Shown here one piece after another: positions 2,386-13,512 of a stretch of DNA of 64,000 nt. A program made the translations under genes and the position numbers. The DNA is from an uncultured Chloroflexia bacterium (lineage in GTDB: Bacteria > Chloroflexota > Limnocylindria > Limnocylindrales > CSP1-4). Numbering within the stretch: position 1 is the first letter of the stretch; each line of letters opens with the position of its first letter. The notes under the pieces are model-generated. The model worked only from the letters and a program-made list of their open reading frames with translations. It had not been told where the DNA came from and did not search any database. Location: contig CAVZLW010000007.1 of the NCBI GenBank assembly GCA_963776285.1, positions 185,415-249,414 of the forward strand. The letters run 5' to 3'.

Positions 2386-3423
2386 ATGACCAACGAGACC
2401 GTCGGCAGTCGTGCCGACCACCAGCACCCCGTCCGGACCGTTCCCCGGTTCGCGCTCCGCATCTTCTGGCTGCTGCACCGCGCGATGGTCCGGCTCAGCG
2501 GCCACCGGTTCGGCCTCAGTCGGCCCGAGGCCGGCGAGCGGTTCGGGATGCTGCGCCTCACCACGGTCGGGCGTCGCTCCGGGGCAACCCGGGTGGCGAT
2601 CGTCGGCTACTACGAGGACGGGGCCAACCTCGTCACCCTGGCGATGAACGGCTGGGGGCGCACGGAGCCGGCGTGGTGGCTGAACCTCCAGGCGAACCCC
2701 GACGCCACGGTTGAGCTGCCCGACGGCCCCCGAGCGGTGCGGGCCCGCGCCGCGTCGGGCGAGGAGCGCGACCGGCTCTGGGCCAGGTTCCGCGACTATC
2801 CCGGCTGGGCCCCCGACATCGATGCCTCCGCGGCGCTGCGGCCCACCCCCACGGCGGTGATCGTCCTCGAGCCGCGTGATGCCCTGCCCGAGACCACCGC
2901 CCCGGCGACGAACGTCCCGGCGGACGTCCCCGCCCCGGCCGTCCAGACAGTGCTTACCGCGGACGCTCACTCGCCTCGCCGGCTGGCGCTCCGCCACCTC
3001 TGGATCGTCCCGGGGCTCGGCATCGCCCTCTTCGCCAACGCGCAGTCCACGACCTACGGCGTCGGCCTGGTGCCGCTCCTGCTGTTCGGGATCGTGCCCC
3101 ACCTCCCAGCCCTCGCGGGGATCGGTCAGCCGCTCGGTCGCGGCCAGCTGGCCCCGCGCGCCGTCCCGCTCTTCAACGCGATGCACCAGCCGGCCCTGCC
3201 GCTGGCGGTGGCAGTGCTTGCCGCCACAGGCGTTCTGTCCCCGTTCTGGCTGGTGGGCGCCCTGGCGTGGCTCAGTCACATCGTCGTGGACTGGGGCTTC
3301 GCCAAAGGAATCCGGACCCGCGACGGATACGTTCGGGGCTCCGCCGGCGCCGGACGCCGAGCGCACCGAGGCGAAACGACCAGCGGACCCTCGGCCCAGG
3401 TCGGCGTGTCGGCTCCAGCATGA
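2386..3423 (+). CDS. Deazaflavin(F420)-dependent nitroreductase (Ddn/DUF385-like) fused to a C-terminal DUF4260-like membrane domain
   Basis: RBS GAGGAGA. The N-terminal ~160 aa match the Ddn/PNPOx-like nitroreductase family (RLSGHRFG, LLRLTTVGRRSGATRV, ANPDATVEL). The C-terminal ~130 aa are hydrophobic and resemble the DUF4260 protein at 34873..35283. The two parts are in one continuous frame. Confidence 0.65.
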   Translation: MTNETVGSRADHQHPVRTVPRFALRIFWLLHRAMVRLSGHRFGLSRPEAGERFGMLRLTTVGRRSGATRVAIVGYYEDGANLVTLAMNGWGRTEPAWWLNLQANPDATVELPDGPRAVRARAASGEERDRLWARFRDYPGWAPDIDASAALRPTPTAVIVLEPRDALPETTAPATNVPADVPAPAVQTVLTADAHSPRRLALRHLWIVPGLGIALFANAQSTTYGVGLVPLLLFGIVPHLPALAGIGQPLGRGQLAPRAVPLFNAMHQPALPLAVAVLAATGVLSPFWLVGALAWLSHIVVDWGFAKGIRTRDGYVRGSAGAGRRAHRGETTSGPSAQVGVSAPA

Positions 3424-8671: not shown

Positions 8672-10237
8672 GTGGGCCCGGCAGATAGAACGATGACCGC
8701 CTCGTCGATTGCGCCAACGGCCGTCGTGTGGTTCCGGCGCGACCTCCGCCTGCACGACCATCCGGCGCTCGACGCGGCACTCGCGCAGGCCGACCGCGTC
8801 GCGCCCCTGTTCGTCCTCGATCCCGCCCTGATTGCCGGCCGCTGGCGGTCGCCGAACCGGACCTGGTTCATGCTCGCCTCTCTCGCCGAGCTGGCGGCGT
8901 CGCTCGAGACAGCCGGATCGGCACTCGCCGTCCGGGTCGGGCGCCCGGACGAGGTTGTGCCGGCGTTTGCGCAGGAGGTCGGGGCGAGGGCGGTCCACGT
9001 GAGCCGCGACTACGCGCCCTACGGACGAGCCCGGGACCGGCGGGTCGCCGGGGCGCTCCGGGAGGCCGGGGTCCCGCTCCACGCCACGCGAGGCAACCTC
9101 ATCCATGAACCCGAGGATCTCGCGACGCGGTCGGGCACGCCGTACCGGGTCTTCGGCCCCTTCCACCGGGCGTGGTCGACCCTCTCGGTCAGGACACCGC
9201 TCGCCGCGCCGACGGTCATCCCGACCGACACGTCCCAGGCTCGCGCCCGGCCGAGGATGGGGACGGCCGACGGCCGGATCTCGGCCTGGCTCGACGCGCT
9301 CCGAGAGCACGGCGTCGACGCGGCGCAGGTGGAGAGCCTCGCCTCTCCGACCGCCGAGCCCAGTCTCGTCCCCGACCCCGGCGAGTCCGCGGCGCGACTC
9401 CGGCTCGCGCGCTGGACAGGGGCCGCCGGCGACCGGCCACCTCGCGTGCTGGACTACGAGCGCGGCCGGGACCTCCTCGGGATCGATGCAACCTCCCGCC
9501 TCAGCCAGGATCTCCGGTGGGGACTCCTCTCGCCGGTCGAGGTCGCGAGCCGTGTCTTCGCCGCGGGACCGGAACCGGGAGCAGACCGCTTCGTCGCCGA
9601 GCTCGCGTGGCGCGACTTCTACGCCCACGTCCTGTGGCACGACCCGGAGTCCGCCCGCCGGGCGACACGCCGCGTCTACGACGCCGTCCCCTGGCGAGAC
9701 GACCCGGCCGCGGTCGACGCCTGGACCGACGGGTCGACCGGCTATCCGGTGGTCGACGCCGCAATGCGCCAGCTGCGTGCGACAGGCTGGATGCACAACC
9801 GCGCCCGGATGATCGTCGCGTCGTTCCTGACCAAGGATCTCCTCGTCGACTGGCGGGTCGGGGAGGCTTGGTTCATGCGTCATCTCCTCGACGGCGATCC
9901 GGCCAGCAACAACGGCGGCTGGCAGTGGGCAGCCTCAACCGGGACGGATGCCCAGCCGTACTTCCGGGTGTTCGACCCCGTGGCTCAGGGGCGCCGCTTC
10001 GACCCCGATGGCGCCTACGTCCGTCGCTGGGTACCGGAGCTCGCCGGTGTCCCAGTCGAGTACCTCCACGCACCCTGGACGATGCCGGACGCCGCCCGGG
10101 CCGCACCGGGCTGCCGGATCGGCCTCGACTACCCTGCGCCGATCGTCGACCATCGCGACGCCCGCCGCCGCGCGATCGAGGCGTACGCGTCCGTCCGCGC
10201 TGGCCAGGGCCGGGTTTCGGGGCCCGAATCCCGATGA
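8672..10237 (+). CDS. phr: Deoxyribodipyrimidine photolyase / cryptochrome family protein
   Basis: N-terminal photolyase domain VVWFRRDLRLHDHPAL and a C-terminal FAD-binding domain (WREFY-like, GWMHNRARMIVASFL, TGTDAQPYFRVFDP). An alternative start at 8693 is possible. Confidence 0.85.
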   Translation: MGPADRTMTASSIAPTAVVWFRRDLRLHDHPALDAALAQADRVAPLFVLDPALIAGRWRSPNRTWFMLASLAELAASLETAGSALAVRVGRPDEVVPAFAQEVGARAVHVSRDYAPYGRARDRRVAGALREAGVPLHATRGNLIHEPEDLATRSGTPYRVFGPFHRAWSTLSVRTPLAAPTVIPTDTSQARARPRMGTADGRISAWLDALREHGVDAAQVESLASPTAEPSLVPDPGESAARLRLARWTGAAGDRPPRVLDYERGRDLLGIDATSRLSQDLRWGLLSPVEVASRVFAAGPEPGADRFVAELAWRDFYAHVLWHDPESARRATRRVYDAVPWRDDPAAVDAWTDGSTGYPVVDAAMRQLRATGWMHNRARMIVASFLTKDLLVDWRVGEAWFMRHLLDGDPASNNGGWQWAASTGTDAQPYFRVFDPVAQGRRFDPDGAYVRRWVPELAGVPVEYLHAPWTMPDAARAAPGCRIGLDYPAPIVDHRDARRRAIEAYASVRAGQGRVSGPESR

Positions 10238-10614
10238 CCTTCGCAGGTGGCGACGATCGACCAGTCCACCCCTGCTCAGGCCGCAGGAGTGGGTGTGAGA
10301 ACCGTCATGACCGCGACGAAGGCGTCGCTCGCCGCGGTCCACCACGACAAGCGGCCGGTCGCCAAGGGCGGGGAGACCGCTCGCCACATCAAGGATGCCA
10401 TCGAGCCGCGCGAACTCGTCACCGAAGCTCGACACGCCCGACTGCATCCTGGTCAGGAATAGAGAAGCGGTTGGCGCCGCAGTCAGTCAGAGTCCACGCC
10501 ACATAGCCGTCCGACATCGTCGCCAGGACGGTCATGCGCCCGCGATGATCTCGCGATCGGGTGGGCAGTTCCGGAAGTCACGGGTCTCCGTTCTGAAGCA
10601 CAGAGGAGCGTGTC

Positions 10615-11079
10615 ATGTCCTATGTCGTGGATTTCAGCAGCGTCTCGACGATCGGCCTGGAGTCGTCACCGGTCGCGCCCGCGCTCGCCGGTCTGCGGGC
10701 GAACGAGGCCCGCTACTTCAAGAACAAGTACGACCACGACTTCACCGTGGAACCGGCGAGCGAGGCCCACGAGACGATCGACTACGTGCACGGCATCCTC
10801 GAGGCGGAGCGCGGCCTCGTCATCTCGTCCCGCCCGCTCGAGGCGACGGCCTTCCAGGTCGAGAACATCCGGTGGGCGTACGTGTTCTACGAGAGCGGCC
10901 TGTCGATCAACGTGCTGTACACCCTCGACGACGCCGGCAAGCGTGCGGTCGGGTTCAAGCTCTCCGACGGGATGGAGGTCCCCGCCGAGCTCGCCTCGCG
11001 GTTCAAGTTCGCACGCCAGAAGTCGAAGCTGGCCGGAACCATCCGCGGCTCGTTCTTCGTGATCAAGGGCGAGTACTGA
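10615..11079 (+). CDS. Hypothetical protein with atypical composition (possibly horizontally acquired)
   Basis: RBS AGAGGAG. The 154-aa product is rich in F/Y/K/N/S. Local GC is ~58% against ~72% in the flanks. No family recognised. Confidence 0.55.
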   Translation: MSYVVDFSSVSTIGLESSPVAPALAGLRANEARYFKNKYDHDFTVEPASEAHETIDYVHGILEAERGLVISSRPLEATAFQVENIRWAYVFYESGLSINVLYTLDDAGKRAVGFKLSDGMEVPAELASRFKFARQKSKLAGTIRGSFFVIKGEY

Positions 11080-11491
11080 TCTCCGCCTGGACGAAGGTCG
11101 GCGTCCGATCACGAGGGGCGCCTCCGGGGGCCGCCCTGCTGGGCGGGAAGGCGACGAGGGCGCAGCAGCCGACGAGCACCGCGACGACGACGACCAGGGA
11201 CCTGACCGTCGCTGATGGAACGCCGGTCGCAGCGGCGCCGAACCAGACCGAGGTGATGATGGCCGCGCCGAGCGCACCCGCGAGTTGTTGCACCGCGCTG
11301 AGCGACCCGCTCGCCGACCCTGCCTCCTTCTGGTCCACGTCGCCGACTGCGATGTCGAACAGGGTGCCGATGCACAGTCCCATGCCCAGCCCGGTGACGA
11401 ACATCGGGGGAACCAGCGACCAGGTTCCGATGGACGTGCCCTGGGCAGCGACGACCGCGGTCAGGATGACCACACCGGCAGCCGTCACCAC
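11063..11491 (-). pseudogene. 3'-terminal fragment of an MFS (DHA-type) transporter gene
   Basis: The 142-aa ORF corresponds only to the last ~4 TM helices of an MFS pump (GLGMGLCIGTLFDIAVG...). No N-terminal half is present upstream in any frame. It lies immediately downstream of a TetR gene on the same strand. Confidence 0.55.
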
Positions 11492-11599
11492 CAGCCCGGC
11501 GAGGACGAGCTAGCGTCCGAGGCGCCCCATGAACGGTGCGGCCACGGGCCAAGGCTCCGAGGCCTCATACGTGCATGTCGGGCTGGCTCCCTACGGGTA

Positions 11600-11669
11600 T
11601 CGGGATCGTGCCCCACGTCACCGTCCTCGCGGGGATCGGTCAGCCGCATGCGCGGGGCCAGCTGGCCCC
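11600..11669 (+). repeat. ~70-bp duplicated fragment of a DUF4260-type gene (second copy of 3086..3155)
   Basis: tcgggatcgtgccccacGTCACCGTcctcgcggggatcggtcagccgcATGCGCGGggccagctggcccc is ~85% identical to 3086..3155 inside the nitroreductase-DUF4260 fusion. It would encode GIVPHVTVLAGIGQPHARGQLAP. Confidence 0.6.
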
Positions 11670-12301
11670 CCCTCGCCTCGAGGCTCGTCCGGCACCATCG
11701 CGTGGTCGAACCGGTCCGCGGCGACGCCGGCGCGAACGAGGTGCAGCCGAAGCACATCGACTGCGGCGGCCCGGACCGACACCGGGTCTGCCGCAAGCCC
11801 CGTGGTCGGACCCGCGACGATGATGGCGAGCACTCGGCGGGCAAGCTCGCGGGCGCCGGCGGGCTCGAGGTTCGGCGCGGCGGCGACGATGACGCGCCCG
11901 AAGATCGCCTCTCCCTGGCCGAAGAACCCGGCGAGCTGCGGCTGGGACAGGGGCCGTCCCACCTCGCGCGCAAGGTCGACCGCCAGCAGGTAGGTCGGCA
12001 TGACCTCGATGACGACGTCGACGGTCATCCGCAGCTGGACCAGCGGGTCGATGTCGGGGTCGATCCGCGTCGAGTCCCAGTCGAGGTGATCCTCGTCGAT
12101 GAGGAATGTCGCGAACGCTGCCTTGGACGGGAAGTAGTGGTAGAGGGCGGCCGGGCTGAGGTGGCACGCATGGGCGAGCGCCTTGATCGTCGCGCCGCGA
12201 TAGCCGTTCGCGCGGAAGACCGGCGCCGCAAGGCGGAAGAGCTCGTGGCGGCGGCCCGGGATGCCGGCCGCGAGCGCCGGGTCGAACGGCAGCCAGGTCA
12301 C
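11618..12301 (-). CDS. TetR family transcriptional regulator (C-terminal ~17 aa read through the duplicated fragment)
   Basis: HTH is AAPVFRANGYRGATIKALAHACHLSPAALYHYFPSKAAF. 227 aa with an unusual Gly/Pro/Arg-rich tail encoded antisense to the 11600..11669 repeat. Confidence 0.7.
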   Translation of the reverse strand: MTWLPFDPALAAGIPGRRHELFRLAAPVFRANGYRGATIKALAHACHLSPAALYHYFPSKAAFATFLIDEDHLDWDSTRIDPDIDPLVQLRMTVDVVIEVMPTYLLAVDLAREVGRPLSQPQLAGFFGQGEAIFGRVIVAAAPNLEPAGARELARRVLAIIVAGPTTGLAADPVSVRAAAVDVLRLHLVRAGVAADRFDHAMVPDEPRGEGGPAGPAHAADRSPRGR

Positions 12302-12469
12302 GGCTCACCCGTCCGTGCGCCGAAGGGTCTCCCTGACCAGCGTCCTGCTCCATCGCGCGGATTGTGCGCCACCCGCCCGCGGGAGGCGCCGGATGGATCC
12401 GAGCGTGCTCGCTGCGCCCGGCGGACGCGAGATCCGATCCGATGGAGACCAGGTCTAGAGGTCGGCTGG

Positions 12470-12968
12470 CTAGCGGTAGCCGCGCAGCGCCGCGACCGGC
12501 GCGAGCGCGGCGATGGCGAGGCGCGTCACGGGCCAGGGCGGACTCGAGGGACGGATCTCGCGACCGAAGGCCCGGAAGAGGACCGGAAGGTGGAGCGGCT
12601 TCGGCATGCCGCCCTTGCCAAGCTTTCCCTCGTTGGCGAGTCGGAAGAGGACCTCGAAGAGATGGCGAGTCTCGAGGGCGGGCCCGAAGGTCTCGACGTA
12701 GTGGGCCTCGGTGTCGGTCGGGTTCCAGAAGCGATGGTTCGGTGGCCGGTGGGATGGTCACCGTCTCGCCCGGTCCCGCCCGGAACTCCTTCCCGTCGAC
12801 CCAGAACGCGAGCTCGCCCGAGATGATCTCGAACCCGCTCACCTGCTCGGGATGGGTGTGGTTCGGCTCGCGCTCTTCGCTCGCCGGGCTCCAGCACTCG
12901 ATCCGCAGGGTCTGACGGCTCCCCGGGGCGACGGGACGGTCGCCCGGTTCGGGGTCGATGAAGCGCAT
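12470..12968 (-). pseudogene. Cupin-domain protein gene with a +1/-1 frameshift near 12745
   Basis: The N-terminal part (MRFIDPEPGD...HTHPEQVSGFEIISGELAFWVDGKEFRAGPGETVTIPP) is in one frame. The family-typical continuation (HRFWNPTDTEAHYVETFGPALETRHLFEVLFRLANEGK...RGYR-stop at 12470-12472) is in another. Same family as the intact cupin at 61243..61740. Confidence 0.55.
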
Positions 12969-13512
12969 CCGTTGTCCGGTGCGCTGGTTGACGATGAACG
13001 ACTGGTCCACGCAGGCCTCCTCGGCAGCTATCGACACGACGCTGGGTCCCGCCTCAGGAGCGGCCCTCGCGGGGCGGCCGGCGGCGCAGCCCGACCGGCG
13101 TCGGTGCCGGTGTCCCGGCAGACGTCGAGCGGCGCGTCGAGGTGGATCGTCTCGCGAATGCGGCCCATGCCAGGCTCCCCACCAATCCCGAGTCTCCGGG
13201 TCGATCCCGATGGCCCCAAGTGGACCACGGCGGGTCCCGAATCCGGCAGGCGCTTCGTTCGAATCGGGCACTCGCCGAAGCCTCCGCCGGGGCGATGCCC
13301 CGGCTCCCACCAACCGCCGGCAGCAGGAGGCGCTCTGCTCCCCCGGCACGAGCCCCGCCACCGCCTCCTGCCGCAATGTCTGTCTCCTGATCGGGAGGCG
13401 TCGGAGCGTGGCGGGGCCGCGACGTGTCATCCGCGAGAGCATCGAAGATGACGGACCGCGATCTCGGGCCCGATCGGCATGTCGCACAATTGGCGGAAGA
13501 GGTGAGTCCGTG

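What the first reader, a model, noticed from the sequence alone, without database searches (positions are those of the whole stretch)
10240..12310. Rearrangement scar: low-GC orphan gene, 3' MFS stump, duplicated DUF4260 fragment and TetR with read-through tail
A TetR gene (11618..12301) is normally followed by its cognate efflux pump. Here only the last 142 aa of an MFS pump remain (11063..11491). The missing 5' part is replaced by ~100 bp containing a 70-bp fragment that is ~85% identical to part of the nitroreductase-DUF4260 fusion at 3086..3155. The TetR C-terminus reads through this fragment. Immediately adjacent, and converging into the MFS stump, is a 154-aa ORF of ~58% GC with an F/Y/K/N-rich composition foreign to this genome, preceded by another small ORF (10247..10462). 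Together this looks like an insertion/deletion event that brought in foreign DNA and destroyed the pump gene.
Basis: seen in the sequence. Interest (0 to 1): 0.55.

Follow-up and report, generated by a model that had tools for sequence, protein, structure and literature searches.

The report
Gene-decay scar beside a TetR regulator
This stretch is an ordinary patch of gene debris (the tail of a broken pump gene, a scrap of a membrane-protein gene, a regulator that lost its stop codon) lying next to an intact gene that is not foreign or orphan but one of the most conserved, still uncharacterised, proteins of this soil-bacterial lineage.

Summary
The sequence features are real, but the story needs correcting. 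The MFS remnant is larger than the ORF: homology runs 11545→~11105 (- strand) through an in-frame TAG (11510-11512), and the pump's 5' two-thirds is absent from the whole window. A ~100-bp, frameshifted internal piece of a DUF4260-like gene (11568-11670, + strand) matches 3086-3155 (87%, E=1e-17). The TetR is 227 aa, against 205 aa in all ten relatives (Ca. Limnocylindrales-type MAGs). Its stop codon changed TAG→GAG, so it reads 22 codons antisense through the fragment. The 154-aa gene is neither orphan nor foreign. It has over 8000 homologues, the best 120 of them 86-92% identical. Its GC is 65% (not 58%) because it is rich in F, Y and K, while its GC3 is 95%. The pump's broken end faces away from it, so it did not destroy the pump. 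No relative has a pump next to this TetR; its conserved neighbour in six of ten is an upstream cupin gene, itself frameshifted and nonsense-mutated here. orf71 has no support. Verdict: a natural multi-event decay and rearrangement scar of low interest. The uncharacterised p154 family and recurrent 5'-truncated copies of this pump elsewhere are side notes.

The parts
10238..10451 (.). Spacer between the photolyase stop codon and the p154 unit. It contains 'orf71' (10247-10462), which is not supported as a gene.
   Evidence: No Pfam or NCBIfam hit. No tblastn match in 100+ related loci. GC3 is 0.76, below all 46 crude gene calls, whose minimum is 0.80. Its stop codon lies inside the conserved p154 upstream motif.
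10452..10614 (+). Upstream region of p154. It holds a conserved promoter-like block (GTCAGGAATAGAGAAGCG...CCACGCC, 10452-10501), then a ~110-nt leader, then a GGAG ribosome-binding site at 10605-10608.
   Evidence: GAGAAGC lies at -147 to -153 from the ATG in the window and in 15 of the loci scanned (L001, L014-L019, L025-L027, L029, L030, L037, L050), which belong to the closest p154 clade. AGGAGCG before the ATG is conserved in all of them. Some loci lack ~75 nt of the leader, so it is not an obligatory structured RNA. There is no Rfam match.
10615..11079 (+). p154: an intact, highly conserved 154-aa protein of unknown function. It is native to the lineage, not an orphan.
11063..11545 (-). 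3' remnant of a DHA2-type MFS efflux pump gene, covering about the last 147 codons. It has an in-frame TAG at 11510-11512. The longest ORF is 11063-11491 (142 aa).
   Evidence: Profile matches cover only the C-terminal end. tblastn with homologues aligns 11545 to ~11105 straight through the TAG ('PFMGRLGR*LVLAGL' vs 'PLIGRFGRTLVLAGL'). The N-terminal parts of the homologues match nowhere in the 64-kb window.
11568..11670 (+). Internal fragment of a DUF4260-like membrane-protein gene, about 34 codons, with a 2-bp frameshifting indel. It is paralogous to 3075-3155 in the Ddn-DUF4260 fusion ORF. It contains the 16-nt palindrome GGGGCCAGCTGGCCCC (11650-11665).
   Evidence: blastn: 87% over 71 bp, E=1e-17. 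Alignment A1. The translation 'GIVPHVTVLAGIGQPHARGQLAP' aligns with 'GIVPHLPALAGIGQPLGRGQLAP'. The paralogue's DUF4260 match is weak.
11618..11686 (-). Abnormal 22-codon extension of the TetR plus its new TGA stop. It was created by loss of the ancestral stop (codon 11684-11686 is GAG here and TAG/TAA/TGA in relatives). It is read antisense through the DUF4260 fragment.
   Evidence: TetR is 205 aa in 9 of the 10 relatives' ORFs, all ending '...RFDxAMxxG/R*'; L006 has its own variant end and is 213 aa. Alignment A2. DNA homology to L003 continues to window position 11673.
11687..12301 (-). Conserved 205-codon core of a TetR-family regulator. The reading frame is intact.
   Evidence: TetR_N scores 42 bits against a cut-off of 24. 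It is 74-89% identical to 10 orthologues in Ca. Limnocylindrales / Chloroflexota / Dormibacterota MAGs. dN/dS is 0.13-0.21, the same range as among the relatives themselves.
12455..13037 (-). Outside the reported range but part of the same picture. This is a Cupin_2 gene lying upstream of the TetR on the same strand. Here it is a pseudogene, with a +1 frameshift near 12740-12750 and a premature TAG at 12470-12472, 5 codons before the native stop.
   Evidence: tblastn splits the match into two frames. The DNA alignment with L003, L005 and L006 shows one extra base and 'CGC TAG' where L003 has 'CGG GAC'. The L003 orthologue is Cupin_2, E=2.6e-14. The cupin-TetR tandem is conserved in L003-L006, L008 and L009.

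Best explanation
The interval between an intact, native gene (p154) and a TetR regulator is a natural patch of gene debris built by several independent mutational events.

Shown:
1. An MFS efflux-pump gene lost its 5' two-thirds and carries a nonsense codon.
2. About 22 bp from its broken end lies a ~100-bp frameshifted internal scrap of a DUF4260-like gene on the other strand.
3. That scrap abuts the ~13-16 bp that remain of the TetR's original 3' flank.
4. The TetR's stop codon mutated (TAG to GAG), so translation would run 22 extra codons to the next TGA.
5. The cupin gene upstream of the TetR, its conserved partner in relatives, is also inactivated.

Inferred:
- At least two deletions or illegitimate recombinations, with junctions at about 11545-11568 and 11670-11673, joined pieces of what were once three or more genes. 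Point mutations followed under relaxed selection.
- The TetR core still looks constrained, so it may still work with a disordered tail. Alternatively it has only recently been released from selection together with the cupin.

p154 is a bystander. It is a monocistronic, probably well-expressed, lineage-wide conserved gene with its own promoter-like motif. It neither came from outside nor broke the pump.
For: - Anatomy of the MFS remnant, including the in-frame TAG and the absence of the 5' part anywhere in the window.
- DUF4260-like scrap.
- TetR orthologues are 205 aa and share no DNA with the window beyond 11673-11696.
- Genes downstream of the TetR differ among the relatives themselves: a second TetR, a membrane protein plus hydrolase, or DnaE. 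This side of the gene is therefore a recurrent rearrangement point.
- The cupin carries a frameshift and a nonsense codon.
- TetR dN/dS is 0.13-0.21.
- p154 is native: GC3 is 95%, its low GC is explained by amino-acid composition, it has over 8000 homologues, and members are annotated in Ca. Limnocylindrales.
- No repeats, inverted repeats, tRNA-like or transposase signatures flank the segment.
Against: - No genome close enough (same species or genus) carrying the ancestral arrangement was found, so the order and number of events is inferred rather than observed.
- The stump ORF is known only from the source contig itself (P0121, a cluster of one).
- The cupin frameshift could be a sequencing error, possibly from a long-read assembly. 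Reads were not available.
- The 87% identity of the DUF4260 scrap to its paralogue does not tell a remnant of a separate gene from an old templated copy.
- Homologous 5'-truncated pump ORFs recur in other genomes. Pure random decay does not predict this.
Confidence: 0.72

Rival explanations
1. An insertion brought in foreign DNA (orf71 plus the 154-aa gene) and in doing so destroyed the efflux pump that this TetR regulates.
For: p154 is in a context seen in none of ~87 other p154 loci. DNA similarity to those loci is confined to the gene unit, about 10563-11108. Overall GC of 10200-11100 is 63-67% against 72% for the window. TetR-MFS pairs do exist elsewhere (L001, L022).
Against: p154 has a GC3 of 95% and its low GC comes from F/Y/K-rich composition. 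It is a lineage-typical, highly conserved gene. Its neighbours differ in nearly every genome, so a unique context is the norm for it. It abuts the intact 3' end of the pump, whereas the missing part is the 5' end on the opposite side. None of 10 TetR orthologues is next to an MFS gene. The TetR in L022 is unrelated to this one. There are no mobile-element hallmarks.
Confidence: 0.08
2. The 142-aa MFS-derived ORF is not debris. It is a member of a conserved family of short (about 150-215 aa, 4-6 helix) stand-alone membrane proteins derived from the C-terminus of a DHA2 pump.
For: Homologues with known flanks are short ORFs in unrelated contexts: L012 215 aa, L020 208 aa, L103 153 aa, L105 188 aa. 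Three database proteins of 153-154 aa start at the same aligned position. No homologue longer than 253 aa was retrieved. The frames are open with high GC3, and dN/dS among them is 0.2-0.35.
Against: The 5' limits of homology differ: positions 73, 86, 104, 111 and 130 in P0130 numbering. N-terminal residues upstream of the limits are unrelated. In the window the homology continues past an in-frame TAG. Fuller, frameshifted copies exist, one beside a TetR as expected for a normal pump (L021, L022). The query was itself a C-terminal piece, so only remnants that keep the 3' end could be found. A low dN/dS is also expected if the truncations are recent.
Confidence: 0.12
3. Assembly artefact: a chimeric join or collapsed repeat in a metagenome-assembled genome produced the apparent truncations.
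For: The source is evidently a MAG contig of 988,776 bp (P0121). Relatives come from long-read MAG projects. The cupin +1 frameshift could be a base-calling error.
Against: A misjoin gives one junction between two otherwise intact sequences. Here there are at least two junctions within 130 bp, plus substitutions (nonsense TAG, stop-codon loss) that are not typical assembly errors. The 71-bp repeat is only 87% identical and 8.5 kb away, too weak to mislead an assembler. Composition is continuous across the region.
Confidence: 0.06

Closest known systems
Bacterial pseudogene remnants / deletion scars (gene decay by truncation, nonsense and frameshift mutations)
   Same: A 5'-truncated gene with an internal stop, a short internal gene fragment and a frameshifted neighbouring gene, all without mobile-element signatures. 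This is the classical picture of deletional bias acting on dispensable genes (established knowledge).
   Different: Three separate remnants and a stop-codon loss are packed into ~700 bp. The same pump subfamily is found 5'-truncated in several unrelated genomes.
TetR-family repressor with adjacent MFS efflux pump (TetR/TetA, QacR/QacA type pairs)
   Same: A TetR_N helix-turn-helix regulator lies ~130 bp from a DHA2-type pump sequence.
   Different: In classical pairs the two genes are divergent and share an operator. Here the pump's missing 5' end faces the TetR's 3' end. The orthologous TetRs in 10 relatives have no pump beside them, and 6 have an upstream cupin gene instead.
C-terminal extension by stop-codon loss
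   Same: TAG to GAG at the orthologous stop position adds 22 residues up to the next in-frame TGA. Relative L006 independently has a 213-aa variant.
   Different: The added peptide is the antisense reading of another gene's fragment. Its effect on TetR dimerisation or ligand binding is untested.
Helix-grip / SRPBCC-like and UPS1/PRELI lipid-binding folds (for p154 only)

Membership tests
MFS transporter (DHA2/EmrB-type efflux pump) | Full-length 12-14 helix protein matching the family profile end to end above the curated cut-off | tested here: not met
   MFS_1 scores 25.6 bits against a cut-off of 33.4, covering profile positions 276-347 of 347 only. EmrB scores 32 bits against 230, covering positions 344-409 of 485. 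There is an in-frame TAG, and no 5' part anywhere in the window. It is a remnant, not a member in working form.
TetR-family transcriptional regulator | N-terminal TetR_N helix-turn-helix domain above the cut-off | tested here: met
   PF00440 scores 42 bits against a cut-off of 24, residues 25-63.
TetR-family transcriptional regulator | Same length and C-terminus as its orthologues | tested here: not met
   227 aa here against 205 aa in 9 of 10 relatives. The stop codon is replaced by GAG.
TetR-efflux pump regulatory pair | Pump gene adjacent to the regulator, with the adjacency conserved among orthologues | tested here: not met
   0 of 10 orthologous loci have an MFS match within the fetched flanks. 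The pump homologue in L022 sits beside an unrelated TetR.
TetR-efflux pump regulatory pair | Regulator binds an operator upstream of the pump | not testable with these tools
   This needs EMSA or a reporter assay. In any case the pump promoter region no longer exists here.
DUF4260 (PF14079) | Match to the Pfam profile above the gathering score | tested here: inconclusive
   The paralogous domain at 2386-3423 scores 19.1 bits against a cut-off of 27 (E=0.0014). The 35-aa fragment alone gives no hit. The label is plausible but weak.
Horizontally acquired (foreign) gene: p154 | Codon usage or GC3 atypical for the host genome | tested here: not met
   GC3 is 0.94-0.95 against a window gene mean of 0.90 (range 0.80-0.97). 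The low total GC is explained by F/Y/K/E/S-rich composition.
Horizontally acquired (foreign) gene: p154 | Flanking mobile-element hallmarks (integrase, transposase, tRNA, direct or inverted repeats) | tested here: not met
   No significant repeats flank 10240-11700. No RNA-family matches of note. The neighbours are a photolyase and the pump remnant.
Orphan gene: p154 | No detectable homologues | tested here: not met
   More than 8000 proteins at E<=0.001 (the scoring limit was reached). 863 clusters at 50% identity. 576 or more metagenome loci.
Any described protein family: p154 | Significant match to Pfam, NCBIfam, PHROGs, PADLOC, PDB sequences or a solved fold | tested here: not met

The most novel reading that the evidence does not exclude
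The MFS 'stump' may not be random debris. Homologous ORFs that keep the pump's 3' end but lack its 5' part occur in at least four other unrelated genomic contexts, with different breakpoints and open frames, and no intact close homologue was retrieved. This would fit two readings. One is a conserved family of stand-alone 4-6-helix mini-proteins derived from a DHA2 pump. The other is a recurrent process that makes 5'-truncated gene copies. Separately, p154 would be the founding member of an undescribed, very highly conserved protein family, with its own promoter motif, of soil Limnocylindria-type bacteria.
Probability: 0.12. Interest if true: 0.55.

Novelty: already known. Interest (0 to 1): 0.22.

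Why it matters
As a scar it matters little. It is a worked example of how dispensable genes erode in a soil Chloroflexota-type genome, and a caution for annotation. The 142-aa 'MFS' ORF, the 227-aa TetR and orf71 would all be mis-annotated by automatic pipelines; the stump is already deposited as a protein, P0121. The more useful by-product is negative: low overall GC combined with an unusual amino-acid composition is not evidence of foreign origin when GC3 is native. If followed up, p154 is a reasonable target for structural and functional work. It is abundant in soil and peat metagenomes, 80-92% conserved across the best-matching loci, confidently folded, and has no family assignment.

Tried and rejected
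1. Exact-protein look-ups for p154 and the TetR found nothing on record. The look-up for P0121, the stump as deposited, also failed, so the source contig could not be fetched.
2. I looked for the ancestral arrangement. Ten TetR loci from genome contigs and 80 p154 loci from metagenome contigs were fetched. None carries TetR with an MFS gene, photolyase with p154, or p154 with an MFS gene.
3. The last homologue search, on a frameshift-corrected 44-aa DUF4260 peptide, returned no candidates. The origin of the scrap (separate gene or copy of the paralogue) therefore stays open.
4. Rfam and the promoter/terminator scans gave nothing meaningful in 10000-12500.
5. A riboswitch-like leader for p154 was rejected, because several loci lack ~75 nt of it.
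6. Guilt by association for p154 failed, since its neighbours are not conserved.
8. tblastx between loci and the window, meant to calibrate divergence, was swamped by high-GC compositional matches.
9. TAG recoding as an explanation of the in-frame TAGs was rejected. Long uninterrupted ORFs dominate the window, TAG ends 6 of 46 crude gene calls, and both affected genes carry other lesions.
10. The idea of an integrative element with a displaced 3' target-gene stump was rejected. There is no second copy of the pump within 52 kb on the relevant side and no integrase or repeats.
11. A literature search found nothing on this protein family.
Full report
SOURCE AND SETTING. The window has 72% GC. The TetR at 11618-12301 has ten relatives in the species-level genome collection. 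All are soil or peat MAGs labelled Candidatus Limnocylindrales, Chloroflexota, Chloroflexia or Dormibacterota, plus one probably mis-binned 'Cellulomonas', at 74-89% protein identity. The 142-aa MFS ORF is deposited verbatim as P0121 from a 988,776-bp contig, presumably the source. No same-species genome was found, so every comparison is with fairly distant relatives.

CHECK OF THE OBSERVATION. All four ORFs exist.
- The 142-aa ORF matches only the last fifth of MFS profiles: MFS_1 positions 276-347 of 347 at 25.6 bits (below the cut-off), and EmrB/DHA2 positions 344-409 of 485.
- The repeat is real. Positions 11600-11669 match 3086-3155 at 87% over 71 bp, E=1e-17, far above any other internal match.
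- The ORF at 2386-3423 is an F420H2-dependent (Ddn-type) reductase domain followed by a weak DUF4260 match, 19 bits against a cut-off of 27.
- The numbers given for the 154-aa ORF are off. Its GC is 65.2%, not 58%, and its third-position GC is 94-95%, above the window's gene mean of 90%. It is indeed enriched in F, Y and K, by 2-5 times. That enrichment, not foreign origin, lowers its GC.

THE MFS REMNANT. Translating the minus strand shows that homology does not start at the GTG of the ORF. It continues upstream through an in-frame TAG at 11510-11512: '...VAAPFMGRLGR*LVLAGLVVTAAGVV...' aligns with '...AAAPLIGRFGRTLVLAGLLATIAGVL...' in homologues. tblastn places the homologous block at 11545 to ~11105. 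Homologues have CGG or ACG where the window has TAG. Longer homologues, and the N-terminal half of the fullest one (L022), match nothing else in the 64 kb. The gene is therefore truly 5'-truncated and nonsense-mutated. Its 3' end and C-terminal tail are within the variation seen among homologues. It overlaps the 3' end of p154 by 17 bp, convergently.

THE DUF4260-LIKE SCRAP. On the plus strand, 11568-11670 reads 'YVHVGLAPYG' and then, after a 2-bp indel, 'IGIVPHVTVLAGIGQPHARGQLAP'. The fusion ORF has 'TYGVGLVPLLLFGIVPHLPALAGIGQPLGRGQLAP'. This is about 34 codons from the middle of a ~115-residue domain. Only ~22 bp separate it from the end of the MFS homology. With 75% amino-acid identity and strong GC3 bias, 87% DNA identity fits either an old paralogue remnant or an old copy, so 'duplicated' is not established. 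A search for a better-matching DUF4260 gene failed.

THE TetR. In nine of ten relatives the ORF is 205 aa and ends '...RFDxAMxxG/R' followed by a stop. L006 has its own 213-aa variant. In the window the last codon is GAC instead of GGC/GGT. The stop position (11684-11686) reads GAG instead of TAG/TAA/TGA. The frame then runs 22 codons to a TGA at 11618-11620. blastn homology to the closest relatives (L003 and L004, 86%) continues to 11673, about 13 nt past the former stop. The stop was therefore lost by substitution. The rearrangement junction lies at 11670-11673, exactly where the DUF4260 scrap ends. The 205-codon core is intact. Its dN/dS against relatives is 0.13-0.21, the same as among the relatives themselves, so it is functional or only recently released from constraint.

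WHAT THIS TetR NORMALLY SITS NEXT TO. None of the ten loci has an MFS, DUF4260, photolyase or p154 match. On the TetR's 5' side, six relatives (L003-L006, L008, L009) share with the window a Cupin_2 gene on the same strand about 150 bp upstream. On its 3' side the relatives differ from the window and from each other: a second TetR, a membrane protein plus hydrolase, or DnaE. This side is thus a recurrent synteny breakpoint. The nearest thing to an intact copy of the pump (L022, split by a frameshift) does sit beside a TetR, but one unrelated to this TetR. The premise that the stump is this regulator's cognate pump is therefore unsupported.

THE DECAY EXTENDS BEYOND THE REPORTED RANGE. The window's cupin gene (13037 to 12455, minus strand) has one extra base near 12740-12750 that shifts the frame. 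It also has a premature TAG at 12470-12472, five codons before the native stop. Together with the pump remnant, the scrap and the stop-codon loss, this makes four lesions in about 2 kb around the TetR.

orf71. It has no family hit, no counterpart in any locus, and a GC3 below every gene call. Its stop codon lies inside the p154 promoter-like motif. In 72% GC DNA, ORFs of this size occur in every frame. I do not count it as a gene.

MECHANISM. Shown: the pump remnant, the scrap, the stop-codon loss, the cupin lesions, and the absence of mobile-element hallmarks. Inferred: at least two deletion or illegitimate-recombination events, with junctions at about 11545-11568 and 11670-11673, plus later point mutations under relaxed selection. 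The alternatives are foreign insertion, a functional mini-MFS and misassembly. They are weighed in the rival section; none is favoured.

RESIDUAL ODDITIES.
1. Among homologues of the stump whose flanks could be read, four are also 5'-truncated (L012, L020, L103, L105). Their breakpoints differ and their neighbours are unrelated. Two are fuller but frameshifted (L021, L022). None is intact, and no database hit exceeds 253 aa. Because the query was a C-terminal piece, only remnants that keep the 3' end could be seen. Many hits also come from ~1-kb contigs, so a sampling effect is likely but not proven.
2. GCTAGC occurs only twice in 64 kb, against 191 GCCGGC sites. Both occurrences are the in-frame TAGs of the pump and the cupin, each replacing 'CGG NNN' by 'CGC TAG'. 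CTAG is generally avoided in high-GC3 coding DNA, so nonsense TAGs are among the few places it can appear. The identical hexamer context twice remains unexplained.

VERDICT. It is an ordinary example of bacterial gene decay. Interest is low.

Noticed in passing
window 12455-13037 (- strand): The Cupin_2 gene upstream of the TetR, conserved as a cupin-TetR tandem in 6 of 10 relatives, is a pseudogene here. It has a +1 frameshift near 12740-12750 and a premature TAG at 12470-12472. The frameshift could also be a sequencing error.
   Followed up: yes
window 11509-11514 and 12469-12474: The only two GCTAGC hexamers in the 64-kb window are exactly the two in-frame premature TAGs, in the pump remnant and the cupin. 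For comparison there are 191 GCCGGC sites, and CTAG occurs 13 times against ~162 expected. In both cases relatives have 'CGG NNN' where the window has 'CGC TAG'. No explanation was found; it may be chance plus CTAG avoidance in coding DNA.
   Followed up: partly
L012 8001-8648; L020 6001-6627; L103 2937-3398; L105 1093-1659; L021 5511-6678; L022 4561-5756: Homologues of the pump remnant in other genomes are also broken. Four are 5'-truncated ORFs with different breakpoints in unrelated contexts, and two are fuller but frameshifted. No intact close homologue was retrieved. dN/dS among them is 0.2-0.35. This could be a sampling effect, parallel decay, or a functional short form.
   Followed up: partly
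window 10452-10501 and the same position in L001, L014-L019, L025-L027, L029, L030, L037, L050: A conserved promoter-like block (…GTCGTGGxTCGAGAAGCGCCTGTCACCGCCACCGGGTACATTCCAC…) lies about 150 nt upstream of the p154 start codon in the closest clade. The window copy has a divergent '-10'-like part (CAGAGT instead of TACATT).
   Followed up: partly
protein P0001 (741-bp ENA contig): A 213-aa p154 variant carries an internal tandem duplication of about 60 residues (a helix plus three strands). This suggests a modular build of the fold.
   Followed up: no
L003 3331-3792 and L004 2062-2523, compared with window ~13040-13190: An SRPBCC/Polyketide_cyc2 gene lies next to the cupin in L003 and L004. 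It is absent at the corresponding place in the window, L005 and L006. This is another presence/absence difference at this locus.
   Followed up: partly
L006 10001-10642: A relative's TetR also has an altered C-terminus: 213 aa ending '...RFDRATVILRTDPGSSS'. The C-terminal end of this TetR group therefore varies repeatedly.
   Followed up: no
window 2386-3423 (+): A fusion ORF combines an F420H2-dependent quinone/nitro-reductase (Ddn-type) domain with a C-terminal DUF4260-like membrane domain. This is an unusual architecture that was not examined further.
   Followed up: no
window 11650-11665: There is a perfect 16-nt palindrome, GGGGCCAGCTGGCCCC, inside the DUF4260 scrap and the TetR tail. The paralogue at 3142-3159 has an imperfect version.
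   Followed up: no
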